Translations under genes and position numbers: made by a program
Part shown: positions 32,741 through 60,403 of the stretch, piece after piece
How positions within the stretch are numbered: the stretch's first letter is position 1
How the letters are laid out: the number at the start of each line of letters is the position of its first letter
Origin: an uncultured Actinomycetota bacterium
GTDB lineage: Bacteria; Actinomycetota; Actinomycetes; Mycobacteriales; Mycobacteriaceae
Length of the DNA stretch: 64,000 bases
Direction of reading: 5' to 3'
NCBI GenBank assembly: GCA_963801365.1
Contig: CAWDEZ010000007.1
Coordinates: forward strand, 276,124-340,123
The notes under the pieces: model-generated
The model's database searches: none
The model's input: only the letters and a program-made list of their open reading frames with translations
What the model was told of the DNA's origin: nothing

Positions 32741-32777
32741 ACTTTCGAGACGCTCGTAACTCGTCTATTTCGAGACC
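32741..32777 (+). repeat. 37-bp dyad repeat, copy 1
   Basis: ACTTTCGAGACGCTCGTAACTCGTCTATTTCGAGACC; contains the TAG stop (32765-32767) of the minus-strand cyclase-ATPase gene. Confidence 0.8.
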
Positions 32778-35429
32778 GCGTTCAGCTCTGCTCGGGCCTG
32801 GTCGATTTGGTCGTATGCGTAGGTCGCCATCGCGGCGGTGGTCATCGTCTCGCCCTTGCGGGCAAGCGATTCGTAGGTCTGGTCGCCGAGCACGTTGCGG
32901 AGATGGGCGATCGCGGTGGTGATTTCGAGGTACGCCATTTCGGTGAGGGACTGAGCGCGAACCCGGCGATGGTGGCCGCCGGTTCATGGCGTCCGAGCCG
33001 GTCCAAGACCGTGGCGAGGCGAGCCAGTGGGTTGCGCATCGTGGTGGTGTCGCCCGCGTCGTGCATGTTTCGGATGGCCAGACTGATCTGGTCGAACGCG
33101 GACGCCATGTCGCCGTGCGTGGCCTCGAGGCGGGGCAGGTTGGATGCAATTGTGGATTCGATGAAGCGGTTGCCGCTGTCTTGAGCGATCACCAGGCCCC
33201 GGCGCAACGCGTCGAGTGCGCGGGCGGGATCTGTGTCGGCGTACGCGGTGCCGTAGGCGTAGAGCACGAAGGAAAGCACAAACGGGTTCCCCGTTGCCTC
33301 CGCAGCCTCCATCAGGCCATCCGCAACAACCCTGGCCTCCTGTCCCGAACCGGCGAACACAAGCCCCAGAACCAGACTCGCCCGGATCGTCACCGGGGCG
33401 TCGCGGCGGCGGCGCAGCTCGGCGCGGCACACCTCCAGCCACCGTTCGGGCTGCCCGACGAACAAGTAGGCACCTCCAAGCCCGCAGCCGTGCGGCAGCG
33501 CATCGCGGTTCCTGCCCAGAACGAACTGGCCGTCGTCGCAGTATCGAACGGCCTCCTCGACCCGCCCCGCCGTGTAGCACAACGACGCCATCAGGTACAA
33601 AGCGGCAAGCCGGGGATGGTCTATCGCACGGGCGGGCGCGATCAGCTCTTCAACCCAGGCGATCGGCTCATAGTTCTCGATCGCCGCGCCAAGAAACCCG
33701 GCATAGGTGGCGATCGCGGCAGCGGTGTCGAGGTCGCCGTGGTCGGCGGCCCAGCGGAATGCGGTGCGCAAGTTGGCCAGCTCGGTGCTGAACCACGTGT
33801 ACGACTCGCGCTGGCGGGGGCTGTTCCACATGGCCATGATGTCGGATTCGCGGCCAGCGAAGTGGCGGGCATGCGCGGCCCGAACCTCTGTGCGCCGCAC
33901 CGCTCGCCACGAGTTGCTCCTCGGCGAATTGGCGGATCGTCTCCAGCATTGAAAACCGGGTCCGCCCCGAAGACCGGTCCGCGACGAGTAGCGACTTGCG
34001 CACCAGAGCGTCCAGCAGATCGAGGACGGCGTACTCGTCGATGTCATCGAATCCGACTACGGCGCAGGCGCTCTGGAGGTCGAATCCGCCCGCGAACACC
34101 GAACACCTTGCCAGCAGAGACTTTTCGGCGTCATCGAGCAGGTCATAAGACCACGCCACCGCGTGACGCAGCGTGTGGTGGCGTTCCAGTCCGCGCCGCG
34201 AGCCGACCAGCAGCCGGAATCGGTGATCGAGACGATCACGGACCTCACTGGCCGTCATCGACGCCATCCGCGAGGCCGCCAACTCGATCGCCAGTGGTAT
34301 CCCGTCGAGGCGTCGGCAGATTTCCACCACCGCGCCCGCCTCATCAGCTGTGGCCATCGAGAAGCGCGGCGCCACACTCCGGGCGCGTTCGACGAACAGA
34401 TTGACTGCGGCAGAGTCGACTCCCCCGCTGAGATCCAGCGAGGGCACCGGCCACACTTGCTCGTCGGCGCCCCCCAGCCCTTCGCGGCTGGTGGCCACGA
34501 TTCGCACCGTCGCCGAGGCCGCCAGGATGGCTTCGATCAGATCGGCGGCGGCGTCGAGCACGTGCTCGCAGTTGTCGAACACCAACAGCCGGATTCTGCC
34601 CTCCAACGCGGCGGCCACACTCTCGCCCACGCTCTTGCCCGGCTGTTGAGTGATACCCAGCACCGCCGCCACCGCGTCGGGCACCGCCGCCGGATCGGTG
34701 ACCGCCGCCAGTTCGAAAACCCAGACGCCATCGGGAAATTCACCGGTCAGCCGTGCCGCGACTTCGGTGGCCAGGCGGGTCTTGCCGACCCCGCCGACAC
34801 CGGTCAAGGTGACCAGCCGATGTGTTCGCAGCGCGGCTTGCACCTCGACGACGTCGGACTCGCGCCCGATGAAGCTATTGGTTGCAGGCCGCAGGTTGCC
34901 CGAACTCGTATCGAGCGCACGCAGAGGCGGGAACTCGATGGCGCAGGCCGGGCGCCCGCAGCTGAAACACCGTGATCGGGTTCGGCACATCCCGCAGCCG
35001 TCGCCGCCCCAGATCGAGCAGATCAACACCGGTGAGCAGGACCGCCGTCGACTCGGCCACCAGAATCTGACCGCCATGCCCGGCGGCCATCACCCGCGCA
35101 GCACGGTTGAGCACCGCACCGAAGTAGTCCCCGTCGCGCAGTTCGGCCTCACCGGTTGCGATGCCCATCCGCACCGGCAACTCCAAGGCCCGCTGTGCGG
35201 CTACAGCTGCATCGACAGCAGATTTCGGCGACGAGAACGCGGCGCATACCCCGTCACCGGTGTGCTTGAACATGAAGCCGCCGTGCGTCTCGATCGCGGC
35301 GCGCAACACCTCGTCATGTGCGACGAGGGCCGCCCGCATCCCATCCGCGTCGGCCTCCCACCGACGGGTCGAACCCTCGACATCGGTGAACAGAAACGTC
35401 ACCACCCCCGAAGGAGCAGCCGCCGTCAC
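32765..35429 (-). pseudogene. Class III adenylate cyclase - NB-ARC/STAND ATPase - TPR-like protein, three frameshifts
   Basis: FLFTDVEGST, KHTGDG, LNRAAR; Walker A GVGGVGKT; ends DQARAELNAVSK*. Frame breaks near 34940, 33890 and 32945. Confidence 0.9.
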
Positions 35430-38400
35430 GTCATCGCCTCGGCCCACGCCATATGCCCTTCGAAGCCAAGCGATGTGGCCATCGCGCGGTAGCGATCCCG
35501 ATAGTCGCGATACGCGGTCTCGTCGTTGTGAGCTCGTGCCAGTAGCGCGCGCAGGCGCAGTAGGGGGAGTTCGTGTAGGACGAACCCAGGGTCGGTCGGT
35601 ACAGCTGCCAACCTGTCGATCGCGGCCTTGGCTTCCTGCAGGTCGGCGTCGGCACCCCTGCGCAACAGCGCTTCCACGAGAACGGCGGTCGCCGGGCCGC
35701 GAAACACCATTTCGCCCGTGTCGAACAGAAACTCGATATTAGAACGGGCCCCTTGGATCGCATCGTCGATATCGCCAAGCTGAGTCTTCACCTTCGCGGT
35801 GAGGAACTCGACCCTCTCGACCAACCTCTCTGCGTAATGCTGCCGCAGCATGGCATCACGTAATTTGGTGAACTCGTCGATGCTGAGAGCCAGTTGCGGC
35901 GCATCGCGATTGACTAGTGCCATGCCGCGAACGGTCCGGGCAATCAGCAGCGCGAAGTCGTCGCCCGATTGCTCAGCCATCTGCAGCGCGTCAGCGGTCT
36001 GGGCCATGACCGATGGGTCGAATCGCAATGCCCCGTTGAGGGTGGCGAATCCTTTGTACAAGATGACCCCGATATGCGAGGTCGTGTCTCCCGCCTCGCG
36101 GGTCATGTCGATGGCGTGCTCGAGGTCGTCTGTCCAGCCCGCACGTCCAAGACAGCATCGGCCGCCGCCGCGCACCGCGAGGGCAAACGCCAGCGGTGAT
36201 CCGATTATCAGGGCGCCCTTGGTTGGGTCGCCGTCGGCGAGGTCGATGACGCGCTGCGCCAGCCGCAGCGCTTCGGTGACTTCCCCGGCTTGGATTTTGG
36301 CGTTGCTTGCCGCGATGGTCAGTCCGACTGTCAGTTCAGGATTGCCAATTTTCTCGACGAGCGCGGTCAACTCCGAGGCCATGCGCGCCGCCTCGCGGAA
36401 CCGACATTCGAACATATGCGACGTGAGCACCCCAGCCATGCCGATAGCCAACGACACCGGATCGTTAGCGGTAGTGCATAGGTCGTGGAATTGTTCGAAG
36501 CGGTGGTCGGCGATGGTTGCCTGCGTTCTCCACGAGTTCCCGCAAACTAGGGTCCAGGGGGCGATTCGCATCGAGGTCCGGTCGGGATCGTCCTCAGGCA
36601 ACCGTTCCGCAACAGCCCGCGCTCGCTGCCAGCTCAGCTGTGCCGCGCCGATATCGCGGCTTGACGACCATTGTGCTGCCCGCATGTGCCAGCGGTATGC
36701 GGCGCGCAAATCACCGGCGGCCTCGCGGTGCTCGGCAATCAGCGCCGCGTTCTCATCGATGGATGCCGGGTCGCGGGTCTCGATCGCGTCGGCCAGGCGA
36801 CGGTGCAGCTCGGCGCGATCGGATTTGAGCTGTGATTCATAGGCCACTGTGCGAATCAACGGATGGTGAAACACGTACTCCGGTTCACGGGTGAATCGGA
36901 TCTGATCGATGAGCTCGCCCCCGACGAGGTCCTGCAGGGCAGGATCAATCCCCAGCGTTTCCAGTAGGCCCCGGCTGAACCGCGAGCCAATGACCGCCGC
37001 CGCGCTCAAGGTGCGCTTCGCTTTCGGGTCGAGCCGGTCGATCCGTGCGGCGATGGCCGACTGCAAGGTGGCGGGCACACTGACCTCACGCACATCTTCG
37101 CTTGACATGTATGCGCCGGGGCCGCCGCTTAACACACCCCTCTCAGCCAACTCGCGCACAATCTCCTCAGCGAAAAATGGTGTACCGGCTGCCCTTTCAG
37201 TGATCGTCTCGATCAAAGCGGCCACCGAGGGGTCCGAACCGAGCAACTGGGACACCAGGGCGGCAGTCTCGGTATCGCTCAGCGGCGCAAGGGCTACCGT
37301 TTGCGCACCAGTCAACTGGGTCAATGGACCGCGATATTCGGGTCGGTAGGTGAGCAGCATCAGCGAGGGCGTCTGCGCGACCACCGTGAGGAAGTCCGCC
37401 AGCAGCGACTCGCTGACCTCATCAATCCAATGAGCGTCCTCAACGACATAGACCGCTGGGCTTTCGCGGGCCAACGACGCGGCGTTCACCAACGCGGTCA
37501 ACCGCCGCCGCCGCGCATCGGGATCTATTGCCGGTAATGGAGTGTCCGGGTCGGCGATGCCCAGCAGGTCATCAAAGACCATCCAATCCTCGGGGTCCGC
37601 GTCGGGAACCCGGTCGCGCACTTGCTCGCGAGCGATGTGCGCGTCAAGACCCTCGACACCAAGGGCCGCGCGGAGCAGGCGCGCGACCGCATGGAACGGG
37701 ACCTGACTGGTATGGGACTCGCAAAACGCGGTGAACACTTGCACACCACGGCGACCCGCCATCGCAGAAACTTCACGCACGAGACGGCTCTTGCCGATGC
37801 CTGGTGGCCCCACGACCCCTACGACTGCGCCGTGGCCGTCGATCGCGCGGTCCAACAAGGCCTCAACGGCGGACAACTCCCACCGCCGACCGACGAGTTT
37901 CGACTCAGCACGGCTGACAGCGCGATGCCGTTCGCCCATGCCCAACAGCCGCCGGGCCGAGACCGGTTCATCGGCACCCTTGATCCGCACCATCTCCGGC
38001 TCACCAAGCGCCGCTGCGCCATCAACCAGTCGCGCGGTGGACGCGCTGAGCATCACCGCACCCGGCGGTGCGATCGACTCCATCCGCTGAGCCATCCCCA
38101 CCTGCTCACCGATGGCGGTGTAACCCAAAGCACCCGAGCCGATCTCACCAGCGATCACCTGCCCCGAGTTCAGACCGATCCGCAGCCGCAGATCCGCGCC
38201 GTCGCAGCGTTGGACCTCTTCGGCAAGCCGCTTCGCCTCGTCTTGCACACCCAACGCCGCCAGGCAGGCGCGAACGGCGTGGTCCTCCAACGCAACCGGC
38301 GCACCAAACACCGCCATGATGCCGTCGCCGGTGAACTTGTCCACCGTGCCGCCGTAGCGCTGCACCACCGCCGCGCAGCGGTCGGCGAGTTCTGCCATGA

Positions 38401-38626
38401 TCTCGCGCAGCCGCTCCGCACCGACGGCTGCCGCAATGTCCATCGAATGAACAACATCGGCGAACAAGACGGTGACTTGCTTGTACTCCGCCGATCGACT
38501 GGCGTGTGTGAGCGGTGCACCGCACTCGTTACAGAACTTGGAGCTCGGTGGCAGTTCGGTACCGCACGACCCACAGAACAGCCCCGTCCCGGTCCGTCCA
38601 CCGCCACCATCCCCGCTGGGGTCCAC
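35426..38626 (-). CDS. Zinc-ribbon - class III adenylate/guanylate cyclase - AAA/STAND ATPase - helical repeat protein
   Basis: CGSC/CNEC, VLFADVV, DKFTGDG, GPPGIGKS, VVEDAHWID; intact 1066 aa; stop overlaps the start of the next gene. Confidence 0.93.
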   Translation of the reverse strand: MDPSGDGGGGRTGTGLFCGSCGTELPPSSKFCNECGAPLTHASRSAEYKQVTVLFADVVHSMDIAAAVGAERLREIMAELADRCAAVVQRYGGTVDKFTGDGIMAVFGAPVALEDHAVRACLAALGVQDEAKRLAEEVQRCDGADLRLRIGLNSGQVIAGEIGSGALGYTAIGEQVGMAQRMESIAPPGAVMLSASTARLVDGAAALGEPEMVRIKGADEPVSARRLLGMGERHRAVSRAESKLVGRRWELSAVEALLDRAIDGHGAVVGVVGPPGIGKSRLVREVSAMAGRRGVQVFTAFCESHTSQVPFHAVARLLRAALGVEGLDAHIAREQVRDRVPDADPEDWMVFDDLLGIADPDTPLPAIDPDARRRRLTALVNAASLARESPAVYVVEDAHWIDEVSESLLADFLTVVAQTPSLMLLTYRPEYRGPLTQLTGAQTVALAPLSDTETAALVSQLLGSDPSVAALIETITERAAGTPFFAEEIVRELAERGVLSGGPGAYMSSEDVREVSVPATLQSAIAARIDRLDPKAKRTLSAAAVIGSRFSRGLLETLGIDPALQDLVGGELIDQIRFTREPEYVFHHPLIRTVAYESQLKSDRAELHRRLADAIETRDPASIDENAALIAEHREAAGDLRAAYRWHMRAAQWSSSRDIGAAQLSWQRARAVAERLPEDDPDRTSMRIAPWTLVCGNSWRTQATIADHRFEQFHDLCTTANDPVSLAIGMAGVLTSHMFECRFREAARMASELTALVEKIGNPELTVGLTIAASNAKIQAGEVTEALRLAQRVIDLADGDPTKGALIIGSPLAFALAVRGGGRCCLGRAGWTDDLEHAIDMTREAGDTTSHIGVILYKGFATLNGALRFDPSVMAQTADALQMAEQSGDDFALLIARTVRGMALVNRDAPQLALSIDEFTKLRDAMLRQHYAERLVERVEFLTAKVKTQLGDIDDAIQGARSNIEFLFDTGEMVFRGPATAVLVEALLRRGADADLQEAKAAIDRLAAVPTDPGFVLHELPLLRLRALLARAHNDETAYRDYRDRYRAMATSLGFEGHMAWAEAMT

Positions 38627-38689
38627 GTCAGTATCGTTTCACTGCTGGTCAACGATTTATGTCATATCGCCGTGCCATCTCCGACACGA

Positions 38690-38726
38690 AGTTCTGAGAC
38701 CCTCGTATGTCGTCTATTTAGAGACG
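38690..38726 (+). repeat. 37-bp dyad repeat, copy 2
   Basis: AGTTCTGAGACCCTCGTATGTCGTCTATTTAGAGACG. Confidence 0.8.
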
Positions 38727-38932: not shown

Positions 38933-39613
38933 TTACATCGCTTCTAGCTTTGCCACCTGATCGTTGAAGAGCTTCACTAAGGCGTTTGTATCGTTCGGTG
39001 AAATGTCGCCGCCGGGCTTTTGACCGAAGGCCACGGAAACGTAAAGACCACGGCAAAGGCCAATGACGCCAGCGCCGTCAGCTCCTGGGCTGGTAACGCG
39101 CGTTGCGTTAGCCCAACTGGGCAGCCCCGGCAGCGGCAAAGGCGAGACCGTGCCGGTGTGTCCTTGATATTCGATCGTTCCACACTTGCCAAGCAGGCTC
39201 CTGAGGTCTGGCCGCTCTGCGGGCACCACAAGGTACAAACTAAAGAGTTTGCCTTCGTTGTTCGTCGACGTACCAACGGATCTCATCGTCGACCAAGTAA
39301 CGGATCCCATTTGGGTGTGGGCCGGTCCCCAAAAGATCGGCCCACACTCCGGCGGATCAACCGGGTCATTCGGCCCTTGCGTGTCGCTACTTATGCTGGG
39401 TGCCGTAAATTCCATTGCGGGACTGTTGGGGACAGCCGACCGATCAACGAACATCGAACTGGTCACCTGCGTGAACTCCGGTTTCTGCGGCGTTTCATTG
39501 CTCCCCGGCGCTGCGGACTTGCTCGCAGCCGAAGAGCAGGAGACCGTCATCACCACCATGCATACCGCTGCGGTCACTGCCAACAGTCTCGCGTGAGTCG
39601 CACCTACAGCCAC
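38933..39613 (-). CDS. Putative lipoprotein (possible PknH-like sensor fold)
   Basis: Signal peptide ending MTVSC; DPPECGP...KC...C pattern. Confidence 0.65.
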   Translation of the reverse strand: MAVGATHARLLAVTAAVCMVVMTVSCSSAASKSAAPGSNETPQKPEFTQVTSSMFVDRSAVPNSPAMEFTAPSISSDTQGPNDPVDPPECGPIFWGPAHTQMGSVTWSTMRSVGTSTNNEGKLFSLYLVVPAERPDLRSLLGKCGTIEYQGHTGTVSPLPLPGLPSWANATRVTSPGADGAGVIGLCRGLYVSVAFGQKPGGDISPNDTNALVKLFNDQVAKLEAM

Positions 39614-41107: not shown

Positions 41108-41155
41108 GGTGGTCCCCCTGGAGTCTGAACGAGTCGACTATGCGGTTGCTGACCC

Positions 41156-41238: not shown

Positions 41239-41258
41239 CCGATAGCCTGACGCGGACG

Positions 41259-43734: not shown

Positions 43735-44218
43735 CTAGTCGTCCGGCTCGGCGAACTCCATGGGGTCATAGGGGTCATCGTCGTCGTCATCGAAGGAGTT
43801 CGTGCCGACGTTGAGGGCCGCTGGGTGCTGCTCCAGCTGCTCCAGCTTCTCGACGATCGCCCCCCACATCGACTGCGGGACAACAGCACGCACCGCCTCA
43901 CTGATCTGGCCCACTTGGACCTTCAGCTCGAGGACGTCGGTGCCGCGCTCACGCCCGTCGAGGACGGACTGAAGCTTCTCGGCGGCTCGCAGGCCGGTCT
44001 CCACACTGACCTCGGCGCCGTCGTCCACCAGGGTACGGAACGCCTTGATCATAACGACCTCGTAGAACGCCATCGGGGTGAGCGCAACCGCGACGCCTTC
44101 GACGAAGTCGACTTGATTCTCGCGAGCCCGCCGCTCCAGGATCTCCCGGTACGTGGCATGAGTGGTCTGCTGCACGGGGAAGTGGCGCGCGCAGTGGTTC
44201 CTGACCGAGTCGATCGTG
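43735..44218 (-). pseudogene. 5'-truncated paralog of hypothetical protein 54539-55248
   Basis: TIDSVRNHCARHFPV...FDDDDDDPYDPMEF aligns with the intact paralog. Confidence 0.8.
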
Positions 44219-44540
44219 CCCGCTCTGGTTGCAGCGGGCCGCGATCAATGACCGCCTGCAGATCCTCGCCCGCGATCAGTCGCATGGTCACATACAAGCG
44301 TCCGTCTACCTCGCCGAAGTCGTGGATTGGCACGACGTGCGGCTCGTTGAGTCCCGCCGCCGTACGCGCCTCCCGGCGGAAGCGCTCCTGGAAAACCTGG
44401 TCGTCCGCGAAACTTGGGGGCAACACCTTCAGGGCGATCACCCGGTTGATGGCGGTGTCATATGCCCGCCAGATTTCGCCCATGCCGCCACGGCCCAGCA
44501 ACTCGACTAGGCGGTAGCGTCCGAACGGAGTCCCGTCCAC
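44219..44540 (-). pseudogene. Hanks-type Ser/Thr kinase, N-lobe only
   Basis: LGRGGMGEIW, IALKVL, FRREARTAAGL, HVVPIHDFG; HRD and DFG motifs missing. Confidence 0.9.
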
Positions 44541-44588
44541 TGACCCTCCCCACGGAAGCAGTCATCAAGTTGCCAGCACCATCCGCCA

Positions 44589-44725
44589 GATCAGCGGACA
44601 CCCACGCAGAATCTCACACCGGACACGCGCCTACCTCATACATCGGCTGATCCGGCCCGGTCACCGGATACACGTGTTATTGAGACGAACTTCCGCGAGT
44701 TGCGGTTGTGGTCTGTTCCGAGACC
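44589..44725 (+). repeat. About 137-bp repeat (other copy 60267-60403) ending in 37-bp dyad repeat copy 3 (44689-44725)
   Basis: GATCAGCGGACACC...CCGGCCCGGTCACCGGATACACGTG...GGTCTGTTCCGAGACC. Confidence 0.85.
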
Positions 44726-44809: not shown

Positions 44810-45625
44810 GTGGCCGTGCTGACCTGGATCGCCCCGCTCGTCCTCGTCGTGATGGTCACGGCGGCGATCACCGTGAAGCTGCTTGTGCGCCGCCGCGCGC
44901 CCATGGGCGGCTGGTTCGCCGACTCTCCCCGCAGCGCCGGTACGTTGTCGGTGATCGGCACGATGTTCGCAGTCGTGCTCGCGTTCGTCATCCTCCTCGC
45001 GCTCCAGAGCTATCAGCGCGCGCGAGACGGGTCGAGCGTCGAGGCCATCGCCGTCACCGAACTCCACTCCGTCGCTGACCTGTTCCAGGCGCCCTCGCGC
45101 GATCGTCTGCACGGCGGACTGGTCTGCTACGCGCGCGCCGTCATCGAGGATGAATGGCCCGCGATGAGGGAGGGGCGCTCCAGCGAGCTGGTGCAGTCCT
45201 GGATCGACAAGCTGGGCCGGGAGTTCGCGATCGCCGACCCCCACGGCGCGCGGCAGGAGACGGCCTACGCACAGTGGTTCGACCTGCAGTCGCAGCGCCG
45301 CGAAGGTCGGCGCGAGCGCCTCGCCGAGGCGGCCCCGTTCGTGCCTCTCCCGCTGTGGTTCGTGCTGGGCATCGGCGCTTCGCTCACGATCGCTTACATG
45401 TGCGCCCAAGCCGACCGTCGCGAGGGGGTCCTTATCCAGTCGATACCGGTCGGCTTCGTCACCGCCCTCATGACCGCTGGCCTTCTCGTGGTCTTTTTCC
45501 TCGACCATCCGTACGCGGGCGAGAGCGGCAGCATCGCGCCGACCGAGATGCGCCAGACGCTCGCGCTCATTGATCACGGGAGCGCCGCGCCGTGCGACGA
45601 GCACGGCATCCCCCGTTCGACCTGA
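44810..45625 (+). CDS. DUF4239 / bestrophin-like membrane protein
   Basis: IGTMFAVVLAFVI, YARAVIEDEWPAM, RRERL, LDHPYAG. Confidence 0.82.
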   Translation: MAVLTWIAPLVLVVMVTAAITVKLLVRRRAPMGGWFADSPRSAGTLSVIGTMFAVVLAFVILLALQSYQRARDGSSVEAIAVTELHSVADLFQAPSRDRLHGGLVCYARAVIEDEWPAMREGRSSELVQSWIDKLGREFAIADPHGARQETAYAQWFDLQSQRREGRRERLAEAAPFVPLPLWFVLGIGASLTIAYMCAQADRREGVLIQSIPVGFVTALMTAGLLVVFFLDHPYAGESGSIAPTEMRQTLALIDHGSAAPCDEHGIPRST

Positions 45626-45948
45626 TGATTCTCGGGTTTACCGGTAGAACCACGTAATCTGCTTAGCCCCAACATTTCTCGCCGCCTCCGCCTGGGCCTG
45701 CCGGACAAGATGCATCTGATCCATCCCTCGGTAAGGCCCGATTGTGCTATCAGTAAGGTCCTAGCCGTGCAGTGGATGGCGATTCGAATCGCTAAGCCCG
45801 AGTCGGGCGATGGGGGGAGCTAGCTTTTCCTCAAAGCCACACGGCACGATGCGCGTTCGCTCCGGCCTACAGCGAGTTGCACCGAGAGTCTCGGATCTGC
45901 GACACGCATCGAACCCCTTGCGGGGCGCGTGATTCCGCACGTCGCGAT

Positions 45949-46002
45949 GTCTCAGAAGTTGGTCTCACAACCACGTGTCTCGTCTTCCGGCTCTAAGTAG
46001 AC
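45949..46002 (-). repeat. Inverted, rearranged copy of the GAGAC/dyad repeat array
   Basis: Minus strand reads GTCTACTTAGAGCC...CACGTGGTTGTGAGACCAACTTCTGAGAC; 22 of 29 positions match 44671-44699. Confidence 0.7.
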
Positions 46003-46030
46003 GCCTGCGAGGGTTGCAGAATGGCCGCCG

Positions 46031-49000
46031 TCATGGCATCGCCTCGGCCCACTTCATGTGCCCCTCGTACCCGAGGGATGTCGCCATCGCGCGGTAGCGG
46101 TCTCGGAACTCCCGATACCCGGCCTCGTCGCCATGGACGCGGGCCAGCAGAGCCCGTAGCCGCAGCAGCCAAATCTCCCGTACCGCCAAGCTACTATCCG
46201 CCTGTGCGGCGCAAGCCAAAGGCCGCGCCTGCGCGTCGGCTTCGCCGATGTCGGCGTTGGTACCGCGAGCCAGCAGTGACTCCACGAGTGCGGCGACGGC
46301 CACAGCGTGGAAGACGGCATCTCCTGAGCGCAATTCGCGGTCGACGACGGCACGAAGCAGCTCTATCGCCGCGTCGAAATCGCGCGTGCGGGCCTTATCC
46401 TTGGCGAATTCGAGGTCGATCAGCGGCAAGGAGAAACCCAGAATTCGCTCCAGGTCGGCTTCACGCGCCGTGCCGAGCAGGCGCAGGCCTTCCTCTCGTT
46501 GGGGGCTGTCCTGCTGCGCCAGGATGAGGCCGCGCAAGAAAAGGGCGGTGTCAAGTGCGAGATCGTCGCCGTATCGCTGCGTAAGCTCCAGCGTGTCCGC
46601 CGAGTCCTGTATCGCACCGGCATCCGCCAGTAGCGCCCCGCTGGGAATGCCCAAGCCGTACTTCCAGTACAGCAGCATGGGATACCCGACCGGCGCGTAG
46701 TCTCGACCCATCGCTGCGGCGCGCTCAATGTCCTGTTTCCAGCCCGGCTCTCCACGGCAGAGCCCCGCTGCGGCACGCGCCATCGTCGCAGCGCTCAGCG
46801 GCGATTCGAGGAACAGGTCCCCCTTGCGCACATCGCCGTCGGCCAGTTCGATGACCCTTGACGCCAGCCGCACGATTTCGCCGGTCTCGCCAGCCGCCAG
46901 CTTCGGAACCATGGCCGTGCACATCAGCGCCACCGTCAACGTTGGGTCGCCGATTGACTCAATCAGGCCGACGAGCTCTGAAGCCAGAAGCGACGATTCC
47001 CGATAAGAACCCGTGAAGGCCAGCGCCATCACATGCCCGGCCATTGCCATGGCGAGCGACACCTTGTCGTCTGCGGCGGTGGACAGTTCGCGCAACTCGT
47101 TGAAGCCCGCCTCATCGGGGCTGCTGACGCGAAAGGTCGTCCCGCACAGCAGGGCGCGCGGTGCGATACGCATTCCGGCGCGATCCGGCTCATCGGCAGG
47201 CAGTCGGTCGGCGACCTGGCGTGCGCACTGCCAGCTCAGGCGCGCCGCCTTGATGTCCCGGAAGGTCAACCACGTTCCGGCGCGCATGTGCCAACCGAAC
47301 GCCTGGCGCAGATCACCCGCCGCCTCCAGGTGTTCGGCGATCAGAGCGGTGTTTTCGTCAGCCGATTCCGGGTCACGTGATTCGATCGCGGTCGCGACGC
47401 GCCGATGCAGCTCGGCCCGATCGGATTTCAGTTGTGATTCGTAGGCCACGGTGCGAATCAGCGGATGGTGGAACACATACTCGGGTTGTCCGGTGAACCT
47501 GACCCGATCGATGAGCTGGGCCGCCACCAAGTCAGTAACGACCGGTTCGACCCCCAGCGCAGTCAGCAAGTCGGGACCAAAACGCGACCCGATGACCGCC
47601 GCTGCACTCAACGTGCGTTTTGCTTTCGGGTCAAGCCGATCGATGCGTGCGGCGATGGTCGCCTGCAACGTGGCAGGCACACTCACCTCGGCGACGTCTG
47701 CCGTCGACAGGTATGTGCCGAGCTTCCCTTGCAGCACACCACGTTCCGCGAGTTCGCGTACGATCTCCTGGGCGAAAAACGGGTTCCCGGCGGCCCTGTC
47801 GGCAATCAAGGACCTGACCGCTGCGACTGACGAATCGTGGCCCAGTAACTCGTCGAGCAGCGCGGCGGTGTCCGAATCAGTCAGGGGTGCCAGCGAAATC
47901 GTCTGCGCGCCGGGTACGTGGGCGAGTGTTCCCCGGTACTCGGGGCGGTAGGTGATCAGCACCGTGGAATGTGTCTGCGGAATCACGCTCAGAAAATCGG
48001 CGAACATCGACTCGCTGACCTCGTCGATCCAGTGCACATCCTCGATCACGTAGACGACCGGATCGGTGCGGGCCAGCGAGACCGAGTCGATCAGCGCGGT
48101 CAACCGCCGCCGCCGCGCGTCCGGATCGATGTTGGGCAGCGACATGTCGGGGTCACGAATTCCCAGCAGGTCGTCGAGCAGCACCACATCCTCGGGATCG
48201 GCGTCGGGAACCTGCACACGCACCCGTGCCCGCGCCATCTCATCATCGACATCTGCTATCCCAGCGACATCGCGCAGCAGCCGCGCCGCCACATGGAACG
48301 GGATCTCACGGGTATGCGACTCGCAGAAGGCCGAAAAACCTCGACGCCGCGACTTTTCGCGAGCGCCACCGTCTCACGGACGAGTCGGCTCTTGCCGATG
48401 CCCGCCGGTCCCGCCACGCCGATGACACACCCGTGTCCGCTGACCGATCGATCCAACATGCCGGTGATGGTGTGCAGTTCAACATCGCGGCCCACCAGAG
48501 TCGGCTGCGACCGACCCGTCGATTCGCGCTCCGCACCGACACCCAGCAGGCGATGCGCCGTCACCGGCTCGTCGCTCTCCTTGATACTCACCAGCTCCGG
48601 TTCGCCCAACACGGCGGCACATTCAGCCAGTCGCGCGGTGGACACACTGAGCATCACCCCACCCGGCGGAGCGACAGACTCCATCCGCTGAGCCATACCG
48701 ACCTGCTCACCGATAGTGGTATATCCGAAAGAGCCTGAACCGATCTCACCGGCGATCACCTGACCGGAGTTCAGTCCCACACGCAGCCGCAGTTCCACAC
48801 TGTCGCACTCTCGGACATCGACGGCGAGCCGCTTCGCCTCCTCTTGGACGCCTATCGCGGCCATGCAGGCTCGAACAGCGTGATCCTCCAACGCCACCGG
48901 CGCCCCGAACACCGCCATGACCCCGTCGCCGGTGAACTTGTCCACCGTGCCGCCATAACGTTGCACCACCGCCGCGCAGCGATCGGCGAGGTCGGCCATG

Positions 49001-49227
49001 ATCTCCCGCAGCCGCTCCGCACCCACCGCCGCCGCGATGTCCATCGAATGGACAACGTCGGCGAACAGCACCGTCACCTGCTTGTACTCCGCCGATCGGC
49101 TGAGATGTGTGAGTGGTGCACCGCACTCGTTACAGAACTTGGAGTTCGGTCGCACTTCTGTGCCGCACGACCCACAGAACAACCCCGTCGCGGTCAGTCC
49201 ACCGCCACCATCCCCGCTGGGGTCCAC
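46031..49227 (-). pseudogene. Paralog of the zinc-ribbon cyclase-STAND gene with one frameshift
   Basis: Nearly identical N-terminus to 35426-38626; a 1-nt deletion in the A5 run at 48334-48338 joins ORFs 48256-49227 and 46031-48292. Confidence 0.9.
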
Positions 49228-49290
49228 GACAGTATCGTTTCACTGCTGGTCAACGATGTCCGTCATATCGCCGTGCCATCTCCGACACGA

Positions 49291-49327
49291 AGTTCTGAGA
49301 CCCGCGTACGTCGTCTATTGAGAGAAC
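49291..49327 (+). repeat. 37-bp dyad repeat, copy 4
   Basis: AGTTCTGAGACCCGCGTACGTCGTCTATTGAGAGAAC. Confidence 0.78.
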
Positions 49328-49437: not shown

Positions 49438-50253
49438 TCATGCCAGTTTGCGGCCCCAAGCCTGAATGTACGGCCCGTGAAACACGGTCGTGTCCGGGTT
49501 GTCGTGATGCTTTGCAAGGGCCTCTTTTAATTCGACTAGCTCCTCTTCTGAGACGAGGTCCAGCGCGAGGATCCGTTCTCTCATATTGTCGATGAAGTCC
49601 ACCAGAATGGCCCGGCGCGGATGACCCGGCGGGTAGACGTGGACAATCGGATTGACGTGCAGGTCCACCAGGCCAGCCTCTCGAAGTAATCGAGGCAGCT
49701 TGCGACCGAGATAGAAGTCATTGCCGTTCTTCGCGGCGACAGCCATAAAGAGCTTCACCACCGTGGTCCATGCCTGCGACGGTGGATCGCACATCAGTGC
49801 CGCCCAGTCCATCTCATGAAAAGCAACCACACCTCCCGGTCGCGCCAGCGCCACCGCCTCAGCAATCACTTGCTCGGGCTGCGGAATGAGCACGAGGACA
49901 AGCCGGGAGGTGACCAGATCGAACACCCCCCTAGGCAGACCGGTAGAGCGAGCGTCGGCGGCGATGATTTCGATGTTCTGCAGTGCCTGTTCCGCGACGA
50001 ACGTCCGCGCGAGCGCGACCGCGTCGCCGTTGATCTCGACCCCAACCACTTTTCCCGTTACGCCTACACGTGTGGCGAGCAGATCAAGACAGCCGCGCGG
50101 ACCACAACCGATCTCTACCACGCGGGCGCCTTCTGCTATTGCGATCTCATCGAACAAGCGCGCGGACTCATGACCAAGTTCGTAGGATTGGCGCTGCAAC
50201 CGTTTCTGCTCTGCCAACCTGTAGCCGAGGACGTATTGATCGCCTCCAGCCAT
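49438..50253 (-). CDS. Class I SAM-dependent methyltransferase
   Basis: VVEIGCGPRG, VGVEI, FDLVTSR, RPGG. Confidence 0.9.
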   Translation of the reverse strand: MAGGDQYVLGYRLAEQKRLQRQSYELGHESARLFDEIAIAEGARVVEIGCGPRGCLDLLATRVGVTGKVVGVEINGDAVALARTFVAEQALQNIEIIAADARSTGLPRGVFDLVTSRLVLVLIPQPEQVIAEAVALARPGGVVAFHEMDWAALMCDPPSQAWTTVVKLFMAVAAKNGNDFYLGRKLPRLLREAGLVDLHVNPIVHVYPPGHPRRAILVDFIDNMRERILALDLVSEEELVELKEALAKHHDNPDTTVFHGPYIQAWGRKLA

Positions 50254-52927: not shown

Positions 52928-53214
52928 CGCTGCTCCCTCGCGAAGTACGCACTGGCTTTTTTCAGGAATGCATTCTCCATTTCGAGTTCGCGGTTGCGGC
53001 GTTCGAGTTCGCGCAGCCGGGCGCGTTCGGATAATTCCAGCGGCGGCTCGTCGGCCGCGTGCATGGCCCGGTATTTCTTCACCCAACCGCCGACCGTGGT
53101 CTCATTGAGCCCGTATTCACGGGACACGTCTGCGATCGACCGAGTAGTTTCGACCACCAGTCTCGCTACCTCGTCACGAAACTCGGGCTTGTATTTCTCG
53201 TATTTTCCTGCCAA
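52924..53214 (-). CDS. IS3 OrfA
   Basis: HTH plus ELEMENAFLKKA; CTGAAAAAAG (A6G) -1 frameshift site. Confidence 0.9.
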   Translation of the reverse strand: MAGKYEKYKPEFRDEVARLVVETTRSIADVSREYGLNETTVGGWVKKYRAMHAADEPPLELSERARLRELERRNRELEMENAFLKKASAYFAREQR

Positions 53215-57759: not shown

Positions 57760-58253
57760 GTAGGCCCTACGACGTCGGCAGTAATCCCCTTTAGGAATTG
57801 ACTAGGCACATCATCGCCCTCGATGTGCACCAGCCCGTCGTCATCTAGCGCCGCGATGACGGGGATGACCACCGACGGCTCCCGCATGGAGTGGTTGAAA
57901 TGGATCCAATGAATCAGATGGCCCGGCGCGTACGAGGCGCACTGCTTGTCTATGCCAGAAAGATCCCAGACAAACCCGGACATGGAGACTCCAGACTTTC
58001 GAGCCTCCGCATGGGAGGCGCTCCTGCCTGCACCGGTCGGTGCTGGCCGCTTCGTCATCCGAGCCACCCGCGAGCGTGGGGTTGGCGTGCCGCCCAGTCG
58101 GAGCTTGTCGACGGCATCTCATGAAGCGTCGTCAGTTTATGCGACACCACCGACGGCGGGTACAGCCCCCTGGCACAGCGGAGGGGAGAGCGTGCAACGC
58201 TGGTGACCATGCCGACGTTCGATGAGTTAGAGAGCGGTCTACCCTACTCTTTC

Positions 58254-60248
58254 GCCGGACTTCCGCAGATGATGGGCACACTAATCCTCTGATATGGGTG
58301 GTGACCTGCGGGAATGCGGAAATGCCGATTTCGGGTCGTGTTACTACACGACCCGGCCAGCTCGTTTAGCTGTTGGCGGTGGTGGTGAAGTCGAGGTACT
58401 TGGGTGGTTCGGGCACGTCGAGCGCGGACAGGATGGACCTCTGCCCGGTGGTGATCACGGAGCGTTGGGTGACCTGGCCGTCGGGTGTGGCGAGGGTGAC
58501 CAGGTGCATGCGGTCGAGTTCGTGGCGCAGGTTGCGCCAGGTGTCGCCGGTGGCGGTTTCGGCGACGCGGATCAGCAGCAGCGCGAGCCAGCACAGCTGC
58601 ACGTGGGCGCGGATACGATCTTCGCGGTAGTGGTGGACGGGGCGAAGACCTAAGGCGCTCTTGCAGTCTCGCCATCCGCGTTCGACGGCGATGAGCTGCT
58701 TGTAGGCGGCGGCCAGATCCTCGGGTGTCAGTGTCAGGTCGGAGGTGCGCAGCAGCCACTTGCCGTCCAGGTGGGTCTGGCGTGCGACGGTGCCGCGGTC
58801 GATGCGCAGCAGCCCGGCCTTGGTGCGGCGCAGATAGCGGCGCAGCCCTGGCTTGTCGCGCAGCGAGCCGACCAACTCGTCTCGGTTGCTCGCGGTCCCG
58901 GCGTCGGAGCCCTCGATCAAGCTCTGCAGGTGGGCGACGAGGCGCTCGCGCACCGCGGCGTCGCGGGCGGCGGCCTGGGGGTTGTGACAGATCACGAACC
59001 GTTCGGCGCGGGCCCCGTCGTCGGCGCCGCCGCCGGGTGAGACGAAGACTTCCTTGACCCGCAGGTTGCCCTCGACGTCGCGGAACCGGCCGGGGCGGGC
59101 CAGCGCCGCGGCGGCCTCGGTGTTGGTGTGGCGCAGCTTCTCGGCGTGGATGTAGTGCCCGCCGCCGCGTTGCAGCCAGGCGCGGTTGGCCGCGGAGGCG
59201 AAGCCGGCATCGACCGCCCACACCATCCGGCGCAGGTTCCACGCCCCGAGGTCGTCCTTGACCGTGCGGATGATCCGCTGGTCCTGTGTGTTGCCGGGAA
59301 AGGTCCAGCAGCGCACCGGGATTCCGTCGCGGGTGACCGCCATCGCGATCACCACCTGCGGCAGGTCGTCGCGGTGGTCCTTGGACTTGCCGAACCGTCG
59401 CGTCCCGGATTCGACCGGCGTGCTCACACCGTCCTCGCCGGGCGGGTCGTCGTCGAGGTCGGCGAGGTCGTCGGCGACCTCGACCTCCCAGTAGGTGGAG
59501 GTGGTGTCGACGAACACGATCTCCACGTCCAAGCTGAGCAGATGCGCGACCGAGGCGACGATCTCCGCGGCGATCTCGCCCAGCCCGGCGAGCAGGAAGC
59601 CCATCGCCTGATACGCCGCGTCGTCGCTGAATCCGGGGCAGTTCTCGATCGCGACCCGCTCGGCCACCCAGCGGGTGCCGGCCAGCTTGCTGTCGGGCTC
59701 CAGCGCCCGCTGCGCCACCAACGCGAAAATCACCCGCTCCGTGGCGGTTCCGTCGAGGCGTCTGCCCGCGGCGACGCGGCGCAATGCGGCATCGATGCCC
59801 AGGCGTTGCCACAGCTGGTCCAGCGCCCAGGCCCCGCCCAGATGCCGGGAGTCGAGCACCTCGACCTCGGCGCCCTCGGCCGCGATCAGCGCCTGCTCGG
59901 GCTCGATGAACCGCGAGATCGAGGCGACCAGCCGCGCCAGCGCGTCGCGGTCGACGCAGTCGGCGCGGCCGAAGTTGTGGATCACCTTCGCCGAGGGGAC
60001 CCCGGTGTCCGGATGCCGCTGGCTGTGCGCGAGCTGCAGATAGCTCACCGTCGACCCGTCCCAGTTGCGCCGCTTCGTCTCCCGCAGCTACACCCCTACA
60101 TCATTGCACTAGCATGCTGGCAACACGGCAGACACGCCCAAAGTCGTGTGCCTACACAATTTCACGGTTCCAGCATCCTGCAACACACCTACCAGCACAA
60201 ACACGCGCGCGCATACCCGAAAATGCCTACCAACTGCGGAAGTCCGGC
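58254..60248 (-). mobile_element. IS1634-family (IS1549-like) element
   Basis: Perfect 15-bp IR GCCGGACTTCCGCAG at 58254-58268 and 60234-60248; no direct repeat of the flanks. Confidence 0.88.
58366..60093 (-). pseudogene. IS1634 transposase with an amber stop at codon 2
   Basis: GTG TAG CTG CGG GAG ACG AAG CGG...; DDE motifs FVDTTS, AVDAGF, VERGWR; open frame from GTG 60048. Confidence 0.82.
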
Positions 60249-60279
60249 CCGAAGGAGCAGCCGCCCGATCAGCGGACAC
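60249..60279 (-). pseudogene. First codons (MSADRAAAPSG) of a third cyclase-ATPase gene
   Basis: CCCGAAGGAGCAGCCGCC is identical to 35407-35424, the AAAPSG start of the 32765-35429 gene; truncated by IS1634. Confidence 0.7.
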
Positions 60280-60403
60280 CCCCGCAGAATCTCACATAGA
60301 CACGCGACTACCTCGCACATCGGCGGATCCGGCCCGGTCACCGGATACACGTGGTTTTTGAGATGAACTTCCGCGAGCCGCAGATGTCGTCTGTTTTAAG
60401 ACC
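60267..60403 (+). repeat. About 137-bp repeat ending in 37-bp dyad repeat copy 5 (60367-60403)
   Basis: ACTTCCGCGAGCCGCAGATGTCGTCTGTTTTAAGACC; long match to 44589-44725. Confidence 0.85.

What the first reader, a model, noticed from the sequence alone, without database searches (positions are those of the whole stretch)
32741..60403. A 37-bp dyad repeat (GTCT-N6-AGAC) marks sharp boundaries between unrelated cargo genes: candidate cassette/recombination site or new operator family
Seen: five ungapped direct copies (32741, 38690, 44689, 49291, 60367) and an inverted copy (45989-46002). Each has a TTnnGAGAC-like half-site 25 bp before a palindromic core. The cores are CGTCT-ATTTCG-AGACC, CGTCT-ATTTAG-AGACG, GGTCT-GTTCCG-AGACC, CGTCT-ATTGAG-AGAAC and CGTCT-GTTTTA-AGACC. 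The outer bases co-vary (C..G versus G..C), and the 6-bp spacer is asymmetric and consistently oriented. Left of the repeat (downstream on the minus strand) are signalling-gene starts: two cyclase-STAND genes, a kinase and a cyclase-ATPase stump. Right of it, similarity stops at the same base and the neighbours are unrelated: a cyclase C-terminus, a lipoprotein, DUF4239, a methyltransferase and an OLD nuclease. One stop codon lies inside the core and another 14 nt from it, recalling integron cassettes. Inference, two models: (a) a site-specific recombination or transposon-end site (dyad with oriented 6-bp spacer plus accessory arm sites) that shuffles signalling and defence modules; (b) an operator with CRP/FNR geometry (5-6-5) controlling cyclase and kinase genes, spread by duplication. 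No cognate recombinase is visible in this part of the window.
Basis: partly seen in the sequence, partly recalled or inferred. Interest (0 to 1): 0.78.

Follow-up and report, generated by a model that had tools for sequence, protein, structure and literature searches.

The report
Resolvase recombination sites bounding STAND-cyclase modules
The repeat is real and matches the recombination site (res) of a family of small serine recombinases encoded elsewhere in this Mycobacterium-like genome; about 30 copies mark the exact edges of signalling or defence gene modules, which suggests recombinase-driven module shuffling that has not been described in the literature I searched.

Summary
The five direct copies exist and exceed chance: 5 PWM hits against 0.03 expected. 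The conserved unit is TGTCTCGAAATAGACGACAT on the minus strand. This is the left arm and centre of a 28-bp dyad, TGTCTCGAAATA-GACC-ACATnTGAGACA, followed by further TGTCTC half-sites.

The same architecture lies 120-180 nt upstream of Resolvase+HTH_7 genes at six or more places in this genome and in 39 loci from other mycobacteria. A profile built only from those foreign loci finds four of the five copies and ranks them as its best minus-strand hits in the window. It also finds a sixth, inverted remnant whose centre is deleted.

The genome holds about 29 copies. No pair shares both flanks, and homology always starts or stops at the site. Copies on one contig nearly all point the same way. The window copies are compact res variants in front of cyclase-STAND operons. 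The stop codon of the second operon gene lies inside the next site.

Best reading: res-derived recombination sites that probably also act as operators. Model (a) is supported in essence and the cognate recombinase is now identified. The CRP/FNR model and the outer-base covariation are not supported.

The parts
32728..32777 (-). Copy 1, a compact res-like site of class C. Site-I-like 28-mer at 32777->32750: GGTCTCGAAATA-GACG-AGTTACGAGCGT. A second GTCTCGAAAG repeat starts 25 nt downstream. No gene follows. The TAG stop of the upstream STAND gene 2 lies inside the left arm.
   Evidence: (foreign res profile matches model positions 2-25 and 71-92)
38677..38726 (-). Copy 2, a compact res-like site of class A. 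CGTCTCTAAATA-GACG-ACATACGAGGGT, then GGTCTCAGAACTTCGTGTCGGAGAT. The leader runs on to the GTG start of gene 1 at 38626.
   Evidence: (model 2-25 and 73-95)
44653..44725 (-). Copy 3, a class B site with a nearly full 28-bp dyad: GGTCTCGGAACA-GACC-ACAACCGCAACT. It is followed by an accessory-like CGCGGAAGTTCGTCTCAA and a conserved leader.
   Evidence: (E 0.0046, model 2-61)
49278..49327 (-). Copy 4, a degenerate class A site: GTTCTCTCAATA-GACG-ACGTACGCGGGT. Its leader is paralogous to that of copy 2.
   Evidence: PWM 18.3. The foreign res profile did not report it.
60346..60403 (-). Copy 5, a class B site: GGTCTTAAAACA-GACG-ACATCTGCGGCT. Its leader is paralogous to that of copy 3.
   Evidence: (model 2-34)
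45886..46003 (+). Inverted res-like remnant of class E. The centre of site I has lost about 10 bp (AGTCTCGG|ATCTGCGACA). The spacer and three TGTCTC accessory repeats are intact. It abuts the 3' end of the frameshifted gene 1 and the first four codons of gene 2.
   Evidence: (E 8.3e-11, model 19-109)
35426..38626 (-). Gene 1 of the module: zinc ribbon, class III nucleotidyl cyclase and AAA_16 STAND ATPase, 1066 aa. Its stop overlaps the start of gene 2 (GTGA).
   Evidence: (PycC-like cyclase domain)
32765..35429 (-). Gene 2 of the module: cyclase, NB-ARC and TPR STAND protein. Here it is split over at least three reading frames, either as a pseudogene or through assembly indels. It ends ...ARAELNAVSK with the TAG stop inside copy 1.
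46031..49227 (-). Paralogue of gene 1 behind copy 4, with one apparent frameshift (46034-48373 and 48259-49239).
44052..44561 (-). Ser/Thr protein kinase N-terminal fragment behind copy 3. It shares the leader and the first four codons (MSAD) with gene-2-type modules.
58366..60087 (-). IS1634-family transposase. It follows the 11-codon gene-2 stump behind copy 5.
60418..62313 (-). OLD-family ATPase/TOPRIM nuclease gene. It ends 15 nt upstream of copy 5 and is unrelated to the upstream flank of any other copy.
49438..50253 (-). SAM-dependent methyltransferase gene upstream of copy 4.
44810..45625 (+). Bestrophin-like (formerly DUF4239) gene, divergent from copy 3.
38933..39613 (-). Putative lipoprotein (signal peptide with ...TVSC lipobox, no Pfam family) upstream of copy 2.
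30438..32675 (+). KAP-family P-loop NTPase ORF, convergent on copy 1. It is N-terminally shorter than its ~1000-aa homologues.

Best explanation
Each copy is a res-type site of a mycobacterial family of small serine recombinases (Resolvase catalytic domain plus C-terminal HTH_7; closest solved relatives are Gin invertase and gamma-delta/Tn3 resolvase).

The full site lies just upstream of the recombinase genes. It has a 28-bp crossover site, TGTCTCGAAATA-GACC-ACATnTGAGACA, made of two 12-bp arms around a 4-bp centre. A spacer of about 45 bp follows. Then come three direct TGTCTC half-sites 15-16 bp apart and an inverted TGTCTCAT over the start codon.

The window copies are orphan variants. Classes A and C (copies 1, 2 and 4) keep site positions 1-25 and join them directly to the accessory repeats. 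Class B (copies 3 and 5) keeps an almost full dyad.

Shown here: the homology to res; the genetic linkage of res-resolvase to the cyclase-STAND operon; the exact coincidence of homology boundaries with the site; and the direct orientation of copies.

Inferred: recombinase dimers bind the TGTCTC arms through the HTH domain. Two sites synapse. The catalytic serine cuts at the central dinucleotide, predicted to be AC at positions 14-15, and the half-sites rotate and religate. Between the direct copies in this window, that reaction would excise the intervening module as a circle carrying one site. The reverse reaction, or exchange with sites elsewhere, would insert or swap modules, which would explain the mosaic neighbours.

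The class A leader is homologous to the resolvase gene's own upstream control region. The bound recombinase therefore probably also represses the STAND operon, as Tn3 resolvase represses at res.
For: 1. Genome census. About 29 copies match the same 20-mer. Their upstream and downstream sequences fall into several distinct classes.
2. Link to recombinase genes. Copies lie 125-165 nt upstream of Resolvase+HTH_7 genes at C6:375207, C13:8247 and C26:200574, with a degenerate one at C2:182627.
3. Other genomes. Of 80 loci holding resolvase relatives, 39 carry the site 120-180 nt upstream. The 28-bp dyad and the TGTCTC accessory repeats are conserved in them.
4. Co-variation. More distant resolvase paralogues carry matching variants of the repeats, TGTCTCGTTTCT or TGTCCCGAAAG.
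5. Independent profile. An nhmmer profile built only from foreign res regions hits the window at 45895-45985 (E 8e-11). It also hits copies 3, 2, 5 and 1, which are its top minus-strand hits. Copies 1 and 2 match in two parts, consistent with a deletion of about 46 nt.
6. Boundaries. No pair of the 29 copies shares both flanks. Eight class A modules have eight different upstream flanks. Seven gene-2 ends are joined to modules of classes A, B, C, D and E. In other genomes, res-resolvase modules 90-93% identical sit beside unrelated DNA, and identity starts at site position 1.
7. Orientation. On contig C7, 10 of 10 copies point the same way; on C6, 4 of 4; on C26, 4 of 4. All 13 extra sites upstream of foreign resolvase genes point the same way as res.
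8. Linkage to the STAND operon. The STAND gene 2 C-terminus (...AELNAVSK*) abuts site I in 9-11 of 39 foreign loci, and the gene 1 end does so in 4 of 39.
9. Protein identity. The closest solved relatives are Gin invertase (E 1e-39) and gamma-delta/Tn3 resolvase (E 1e-28), and the catalytic RxS motif is present.
10. Geometry. Tn3 site I is also 28 bp, with outer TGTCTG...CAGACA (PMC4499144). Accessory sites made of direct repeats are known from Sin site II (PMC9943657).
11. Site recognition by other elements. IS110-family elements sit exactly at the centre of site I in two different res sites of one genome.
Against: - No recombination product was observed.
- Copies 1, 2 and 4 lack the outer three bases (ACA) of the right arm, so they may not bind a full dimer.
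- Only one closely cognate resolvase gene in this assembly reads as intact (C6:374488-375081). Several others are frameshifted or partial.
- Diagnostic bases around the centre do not place the crossover consistently. The C at position 16 follows the left flank in C8:388223, whereas the GAGC centre follows the right flank elsewhere.
- Stretches between sites hold mixed gene content in both orientations plus insertion sequences, so they are not tidy cassettes.
- No site follows the resolvase gene itself, so how the res-resolvase module multiplies is unexplained.
- Homology also breaks at points other than the site. It breaks after the fourth codon of gene 2 in copies 3 and 4 and at C10:312670.
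- Typical resolvases favour deletion over insertion.
Confidence: 0.62

Rival explanations
1. Operator only. The compact sites in front of STAND operons are bound by the resolvase-type protein, or a catalytically idle paralogue, purely as a repressor. They no longer recombine. The sharp boundaries are relics of old events.
For: The class A leader is homologous to the resolvase gene's own upstream region through to about 40 nt before the start codon. The right arm of copies 1, 2 and 4 lacks its outer three bases. The compact form, with 25-26 nt between the two GTCTC elements, is conserved across species. The resolvase gene directly follows the STAND operon in about a third of foreign loci.
Against: The best-conserved part is the left arm and centre of the crossover site, about 60-70 nt upstream of any plausible -10 element, rather than the promoter. 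Class C copies, including copy 1, have no gene behind them. The promoter scan found no sigma-70-like site near copy 2. Identity boundaries exactly at site position 1 in recently diverged modules need a site-specific process.
Confidence: 0.2
2. Inert by-product. The copies are simply the 5' ends of duplicated paralogous genes or decayed res scars, with no present function.
For: Copies 2 and 4, and copies 3 and 5, are paralogous pairs whose homology extends hundreds of bases into the genes. The region is rich in insertion sequences, gene fragments and apparent frameshifts. Copy 4 is degenerate.
Against: The 20-mer is far better conserved than the leaders that follow it, across classes and across species. 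The left arm persists where it is not coding, as at copies 2, 4 and 5. Ordinary duplication does not predict that every one of about 29 copies has its homology boundary at the same base.
Confidence: 0.1
3. Operator with CRP/FNR geometry (5-6-5) for a cAMP-responsive regulator of cyclase and kinase genes.
For: GTCT-N6-AGAC is present in 4 of 5 copies, and the downstream genes encode cyclases.
Against: The inner AGAC is not conserved in homologous sites, which often read CGAC. The 6-bp 'spacer' is conserved as strongly as the 'arms', and the outer bases do not co-vary. The same site also precedes resolvase, integrase, DUF1254/DUF1214 and oxidoreductase genes. It overlaps coding sequence at gene-2 ends.
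Confidence: 0.02
4. Terminal repeat of a transposon or MITE, or a structured RNA element in the 5' leader.
For: The element is multi-copy with sharp ends.
Against: No matching inverted terminus, target duplication or transposase is associated with it. Nothing conserved follows the resolvase stop codon. The RNA folds of the five copies differ from one another, with z-scores from +0.98 to -1.47. Rfam finds nothing at these positions.
Confidence: 0.03

Closest known systems
res of Tn3/gamma-delta resolvase (site I plus accessory sites II and III)
   Same: The crossover site is 28 bp with 12-bp inverted arms, and its outer bases TGTCT match Tn3 site I (TGTCTGATAATTTATAAATTATCAGACA, PMC4499144). 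Accessory recombinase sites lie between the crossover site and the recombinase gene. The site sits immediately upstream of that gene. The copies are direct repeats, which are the natural substrates for a resolvase. The protein matches gamma-delta/Tn3 resolvase at E 1e-28.
   Different: No Tn3-type transposase or terminal repeats are present. There are about 30 dispersed copies per genome, most of them orphans beside non-recombinase genes. The centre is GAC[C/G] with an asymmetric predicted AC overlap, not AT. The accessory part consists of three direct repeats after a spacer of about 45 bp. Compact variants lack the spacer.
Sin / beta-recombinase res
   Same: The accessory site is built from directly repeated half-sites, as in Sin site II (PMC9943657). 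A non-conserved spacer separates the crossover site from the accessory site.
   Different: Sequence similarity to Sin is weaker (E 7e-16). Sin res occurs once per plasmid or transposon and does not mark gene-module boundaries.
Gin/Hin/Min DNA invertases and their gix/hix/mix sites
   Same: Gin is the closest solved protein (E 1e-39). The crossover site adjoins the recombinase gene, and a coding sequence runs into the site. Multi-site versions exist (Min in p15B; this point is from my own knowledge).
   Different: Invertase sites are 26 bp, lie in inverted orientation around a segment, and need a Fis-bound enhancer. Here the sites are direct repeats, accessory sites are present, and Fis is not known in Actinobacteria (my own knowledge).
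pdif modules of Acinetobacter (genes flanked by XerC/D sites)
   Same: Discrete gene modules are bounded by copies of a short recombination site. The same modules occur in different contexts, and homology ends at the site (PMC12907356).
   Different: Those sites serve tyrosine recombinases XerC/D and alternate in orientation. Here the recombinase is a serine enzyme linked to the modules, and the sites lie in direct orientation.
Integron attI/attC cassette arrays
   Same: An array of sites lies next to a recombinase gene with its own primary site. The neighbouring cargo is unrelated from one position to the next, and some of it is defence-like.
   Different: There is no IntI tyrosine integrase and no attC-like folded single-strand structure. 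The sites carry a promoter-like leader at the 5' side of a module. The stretches between sites are multi-gene and run in both orientations.

Membership tests
res-type site of a small serine recombinase (resolvase/invertase family) | The site lies adjacent to, usually upstream of, a gene for a Resolvase-domain plus HTH recombinase. | tested here: met
   Met for the site family: four or more loci in this genome and 39 of 80 foreign loci. The five window copies themselves are orphans. tblastn finds no recombinase gene in the window.
res-type site of a small serine recombinase (resolvase/invertase family) | The crossover site is an imperfect inverted repeat of two roughly 12-bp arms around a short centre, 24-30 bp in total. 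| tested here: inconclusive
   The 28-bp dyad is clear in the full sites. Copies 3 and 5 fit moderately, with right arms ...GCAACT and ...GCGGCT. Copies 1, 2 and 4 keep positions 1-25 but lack the outer ACA.
res-type site of a small serine recombinase (resolvase/invertase family) | Additional accessory recombinase-binding sites lie beside the crossover site. | tested here: met
   Three direct TGTCTC repeats and one inverted repeat are conserved in 39 loci. One or two such repeats follow each window copy. Binding itself was not tested.
res-type site of a small serine recombinase (resolvase/invertase family) | The recombinase binds the arms and cuts at the central dinucleotide. | not testable with these tools
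   This needs EMSA or footprinting and a cleavage assay.
res-type site of a small serine recombinase (resolvase/invertase family) | Recombination products between two sites (deletion, inversion or fusion). | tested here: inconclusive
   The evidence is only comparative: homology boundaries at the site. Read mapping and further genome comparison were not possible.
Integron cassette site (attC/attI) | An IntI tyrosine integrase; attC with R''-L''/L'-R' imperfect palindromes; single promoterless ORFs as cassettes. | tested here: not met
   The associated enzyme is a serine recombinase. The strand folds show no special stability. The stretches between sites are multi-gene and of mixed orientation.
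CRP/FNR-type operator | Two conserved 5-bp inverted arms around a variable 6-bp spacer. | tested here: not met
   The 'spacer' CGAAAT is conserved as strongly as the arms. The inner arm AGAC is replaced by CGAC in several homologous sites. There is no covariation of the outer bases.
DNA invertase crossover sites (gix/hix) | Two sites in inverted orientation flanking an invertible segment; 26 bp; dependent on an enhancer. | tested here: not met
   The window copies and nearly all copies on each contig lie in direct orientation. The site is 28 bp with accessory sites. An enhancer was not tested.

The most novel reading that the evidence does not exclude
Environmental mycobacteria may carry a module-exchange system run by a Gin/gamma-delta-like small serine recombinase. 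A full res next to the recombinase gene would act as the primary site. Compact res variants carried by gene modules (cyclase-STAND operons, kinases and others) would act as partner sites. Modules would then be excised as circles, re-inserted and reshuffled among about 30 sites per genome, each bringing its own recombinase-repressible promoter. This would be a serine-recombinase counterpart of integrons or pdif modules.
Probability: 0.3. Interest if true: 0.85.

Novelty: new variant of a known kind. Interest (0 to 1): 0.64.

Why it matters
If the sites are active, they would be a way for actinobacterial genomes to gain, lose and rearrange large STAND NTPase-cyclase operons. These are candidate signalling or anti-phage modules: the cyclase domain resembles Pycsar cyclases. 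The exchange would use a resolvase rather than an integron integrase or Xer.

It would explain why this gene family, with more than 3000 relatives of gene 2, is multi-copy and mosaic in environmental mycobacteria.

It also gives a defined 28-bp site and a 198-aa enzyme that can be tested directly and might be useful as a recombination tool in mycobacteria.

For annotation, the finding explains a recurrent 'intergenic repeat' and the fact that the stop codon of the second STAND gene lies inside a recombination site.

Tried and rejected
- Rfam at gathering thresholds found only a SAM-IV riboswitch and a tRNA. Nothing lies at the repeats.
- RNA folding of the five copies gave no shared or unusually stable structure.
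- The sigma-70 promoter and terminator scan around copy 2 found nothing.
- My first thoughts of an ECF-sigma promoter or an ANTAR hairpin were dropped once the resolvase link appeared. The loop and hexamer patterns did not fit.
- I tried to place the crossover using diagnostic bases around the centre. The result was inconsistent.
- I looked for a conserved site or terminus after the resolvase stop codon. There is none.
- Exact-protein look-ups of the OLD nuclease and the methyltransferase, meant to find sister strains, returned only short contigs from one metagenome run (ERR12037367). Those contigs end near the repeats.
- Homologues of the KAP NTPase were too distant (81% identity or less, on short contigs) to give an orthologous empty site.
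- The look-up of sequencing runs and the genome search (after two successful searches) were closed. No read evidence and no further strain comparison were possible.
- Literature searches found no description of this system.
- The earlier notes of this scan hold only one other note on the same stretch and no look-alike sequence.
Full report
**1. The observation**

The five direct copies are real. They sit at the stated coordinates, all in one orientation.

- GTCT-N6-AGAC occurs four times in the window against 0.62 expected. The copy at 49312 reads AGAA.
- A 20-nt weight matrix scores at least 18 at exactly these five places, against 0.03 expected in shuffles.
- GTCTCGAAATAGACGACAT with up to three mismatches occurs three times against 0.02 expected.

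Read on the minus strand, which is the sense strand of the genes on the left, the copies share (N)GTCTCGAAATAGAC(G/C)ACAT.

**2. Census in the genome**

The window is C7:276124-340123 of a 6.65-Mb assembly with 30 contigs and 65% G+C. The assembly holds about 29 good copies of this 20-mer.

After the conserved 20-mer the sequence falls into a few classes.

| Class | Sequence after the 20-mer | Window copies |
|---|---|---|
| A | ACGAGGGTCTCAAAACTTCGTGTCGGAGAT... | 2, 4 |
| B | CTGCGACTCGCGGAAGTTCGTCTCAAAAAC... | 3, 5 |
| C | (AGTT)ACGAGCGTCTCGAAAGTCAGTCGCAG, then nothing shared | 1 |
| D, E | full res (see part 3) | none |

The sequence before the 20-mer also falls into classes. The commonest is the 3' end of a STAND gene, ...ARAELNAVSK, whose TAG stop lies inside the motif.

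The exact 14-mer is rare in the family. It was found in 4 of 201 genomes including this one. It is multi-copy in a few genomes of the same genus.

**3. The link to a recombinase**

In classes D and E the first gene downstream is a small serine recombinase. Pfam finds Resolvase and HTH_7 domains, and tblastn maps the genes. The motif lies 125-165 nt upstream of the start codon.

There the motif is the left arm and centre of a 28-bp dyad, TGTCTCGAAA(T/C)A-GACC-ACATnCAAGACA. A spacer of about 45 nt follows. Next come three direct TGTCTC repeats 15-16 nt apart. Last is an inverted TGTCTCAT overlapping the ATG.

I fetched 80 loci that encode relatives of the intact recombinase (C6:374488-375081). 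Nearly all come from Mycobacterium or Mycolicibacterium isolates and metagenome-assembled genomes.

- 39 of them carry the site 120-180 nt upstream.
- The consensus of the crossover site is TGTCTCGAAATAGACCACAT(t/a)TGAGACA.
- The conserved accessory blocks are CCAGGTCG, three TGTCTC repeats, and TTATGAGACA at the start codon.
- More distant recombinase paralogues in this genome carry matching variants, TGTCTCGTTTCT-AG-AGAAACGAGACA or TGTCCCGAAAG repeats. This is what one expects if the repeats are the protein's binding sites.

The protein is closest to Gin invertase (E 1e-39) and to gamma-delta/Tn3 resolvase (E 1e-28), and it has the catalytic RxS motif. Tn3 site I is likewise 28 bp, with outer TGTCTG...CAGACA and a central AT (PMC4499144). 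Accessory sites made of direct repeats are known from Sin (PMC9943657).

**4. The window copies are res variants**

I built an nhmmer profile only from the 39 foreign res regions and searched the window with it.

| Hit | Coordinates and strand | E-value | Profile positions matched |
|---|---|---|---|
| Inverted remnant | 45895-45985 (+) | 8e-11 | 19-109 |
| Copy 3 | 44724-44665 (-) | 0.005 | 2-61 |
| Copy 2 | 38725-38702 and 38700-38678 (-) | 0.098 and 2.5 | 2-25 and 73-95 |
| Copy 5 | 60402-60370 (-) | 0.12 | 2-34 |
| Copy 1 | 32776-32753 and 32753-32732 (-) | 0.2 and 0.6 | 2-25 and 71-92 |

- Copies 3, 2, 5 and 1 are the profile's best minus-strand hits. Copy 4 was not reported.
- Copies 1 and 2 each match in two collinear parts. 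Classes A and C are therefore res with the end of site I and the spacer missing, which joins positions 1-25 directly to the accessory repeats.
- The class A leader stays alignable with the resolvase upstream region as far as ...CGTTGACC, shortly before the start codon of gene 1.
- The compact form is itself conserved in other species.
That remnant has lost about 10 bp at the centre of its site I.

**5. Genes**

- Behind copy 2 lies gene 1: zinc ribbon, class III cyclase and AAA_16 STAND ATPase, 1066 aa. Its stop overlaps the start of gene 2 (GTGA here, ATGA in paralogues). This agrees with the other first-stage note on this stretch.
- Gene 2 is a cyclase, NB-ARC and TPR protein that ends in copy 1. 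The interval from copy 2 to copy 1 is therefore one 5.9-kb two-gene module flanked by direct sites.
- Gene 2 in this module, and the gene 1 paralogue behind copy 4, show frameshifts. The genome looks like a metagenome assembly, so these could be assembly errors.
- Copy 3 precedes a kinase fragment.
- Copy 5 precedes an 11-codon gene-2 stump and then an IS1634-family transposase.
- The upstream neighbours are unrelated to one another: a lipobox protein, a bestrophin-like protein, a methyltransferase and an OLD nuclease.

**6. Boundaries**

- Among the 29 genome copies, no pair shares both flanks.
- Eight class A modules share up to 480 nt downstream and nothing upstream.
- Seven gene-2 ends share up to 575 nt upstream and are joined to modules of classes A, B, C, D or E.
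- In other genomes, res-resolvase modules that are 90-93% identical sit beside unrelated DNA, and identity begins at site position 1. The pairs are L011/L014, L001/L054, and L017/L061 from one assembly.
- Gene 2 ends abut site I in 9-11 of the 39 foreign loci, and gene 1 ends do so in 4.
- Of the 120 best gene 2 homologues, about 57 end in VSK, the residues encoded by the left arm. About 22 end in ...ELEHPS instead.
- Orientation is strongly biased. All 10 copies on C7, 4 of 4 on C6 and 4 of 4 on C26 point the same way. All 13 extra sites upstream of foreign resolvase genes point the same way as res.

**7. Interpretation**

The site is homologous to a res. That part I regard as close to certain.

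The pattern of boundaries is what recombination between conserved sites would leave, and ordinary duplication does not predict it. Direct repeats are the substrates of resolvases. Recombination between two window copies would excise the DNA between them as a circle, and rarer intermolecular events would insert or swap modules.

An operator role is likely as well, because leader A derives from the resolvase gene's own control region.

The following are not shown: binding, the cut position, and any present-day product.

The following argue for caution:
- The right arm of copies 1, 2 and 4 lacks its outer three bases.
- Only one closely cognate recombinase gene reads as intact.
- The stretches between sites are heterogeneous.
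- No site follows the resolvase gene.
- Homology also breaks at other points, for example after the fourth codon of gene 2.
- Bases around the centre do not place the crossover consistently.

**8. Rivals**

- An operator-only role is the main rival.
- Inert scars are possible for some copies, such as copy 4 and the inverted remnant.
- The CRP/FNR reading fails. The 5-6-5 palindrome is not what is conserved, and the outer bases are complementary in only 5 of 29 copies.
- RNA-element and transposon-end readings have no support.

**9. Novelty**

The searches of the paper library found no description of such a system.

The closest known kinds are Tn3/gamma-delta and Sin res for the anatomy, and pdif modules (PMC12907356) or integrons for the role. 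I file the finding as a new variant of a known kind: a res-type site that has multiplied to about 30 copies per genome and bounds STAND-cyclase modules.

The two most decisive computations, junction reads and strain comparison, could not be run.

Noticed in passing
L008:2430-3886 and L031 (same assembly); G000 C13:191335-192111: A 1457-bp IS110-family element (DEDD_Tnp_IS110 plus Transposase_20) is inserted exactly at the centre of res site I: TGTCTyGAAATAGA | IS | GACCACAT, with GA present on both sides. This occurs in two different res sites of one genome. An IS110-like remnant splits a site the same way in the window's own genome. IS110 elements choose targets through a guide RNA (PMC11187229), so this one appears to be aimed at the crossover site.
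   Followed up: partly
window 58015-58126 (-): A SAM-IV riboswitch (Rfam RF00634, 75.6 bits) lies just downstream of the IS1634-family transposase gene.
   Followed up: no
window 51977-52276 and 63246-63545: A 100% identical direct repeat belongs to two copies of an IS3-family element (the rve-domain transposase is at 52022-53101). One copy lies just upstream of the OLD nuclease gene.
   Followed up: no
window 7750-9180 (-) and 10503-11933 (+): Two 477-codon ORFs in inverted orientation have identical codon-position G+C values and identical flanking 20-mers (at 7674 and 12009). They are probably an inverted pair of one insertion sequence or duplicated gene.
   Followed up: no
L035, 176 to 148 nt upstream of the resolvase start: The left arm of site I is duplicated in tandem: CGTCTCGAAATAGC CGTCTCGAAATAGACC. 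This is the kind of lesion expected from aberrant events at the crossover site.
   Followed up: no
window 44575-44700 and 60253-60375 (class B leader): The leader shared by copies 3 and 5, about 90% identical, contains a palindrome ATCCGGTGACCGGGCCGGAT. It continues into a shared start, GTG TCC GCT GAT (MSAD), after which a kinase follows at copy 3 and a gene-2 stump at copy 5. This is a second recurrent breakpoint that is not explained by the res site.
   Followed up: partly
proteins P0001-P0120 (gene 2 family): Gene 2 homologues have two alternative C-terminal tails after ...AR(A/T)EL. About 60% end in NAVSK, which is encoded by the left arm of the site. About 18% end in EHPS. The second tail may go with a different site or with none.
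   Followed up: no
window 30438-32675 (+): The KAP-NTPase ORF is 745 aa, whereas its nearest homologues (81% identity) are about 1012 aa and carry an N-terminal Clp_N domain. The window copy may be truncated or mis-started.
   Followed up: no
G000 C26:200574, C13:181297, C12:9108, C26:197800: A subset of sites has the centre GAGC instead of GAC(C/G). This would change the predicted overlap dinucleotide from AC to AG and could define a second compatibility group of sites.
   Followed up: no
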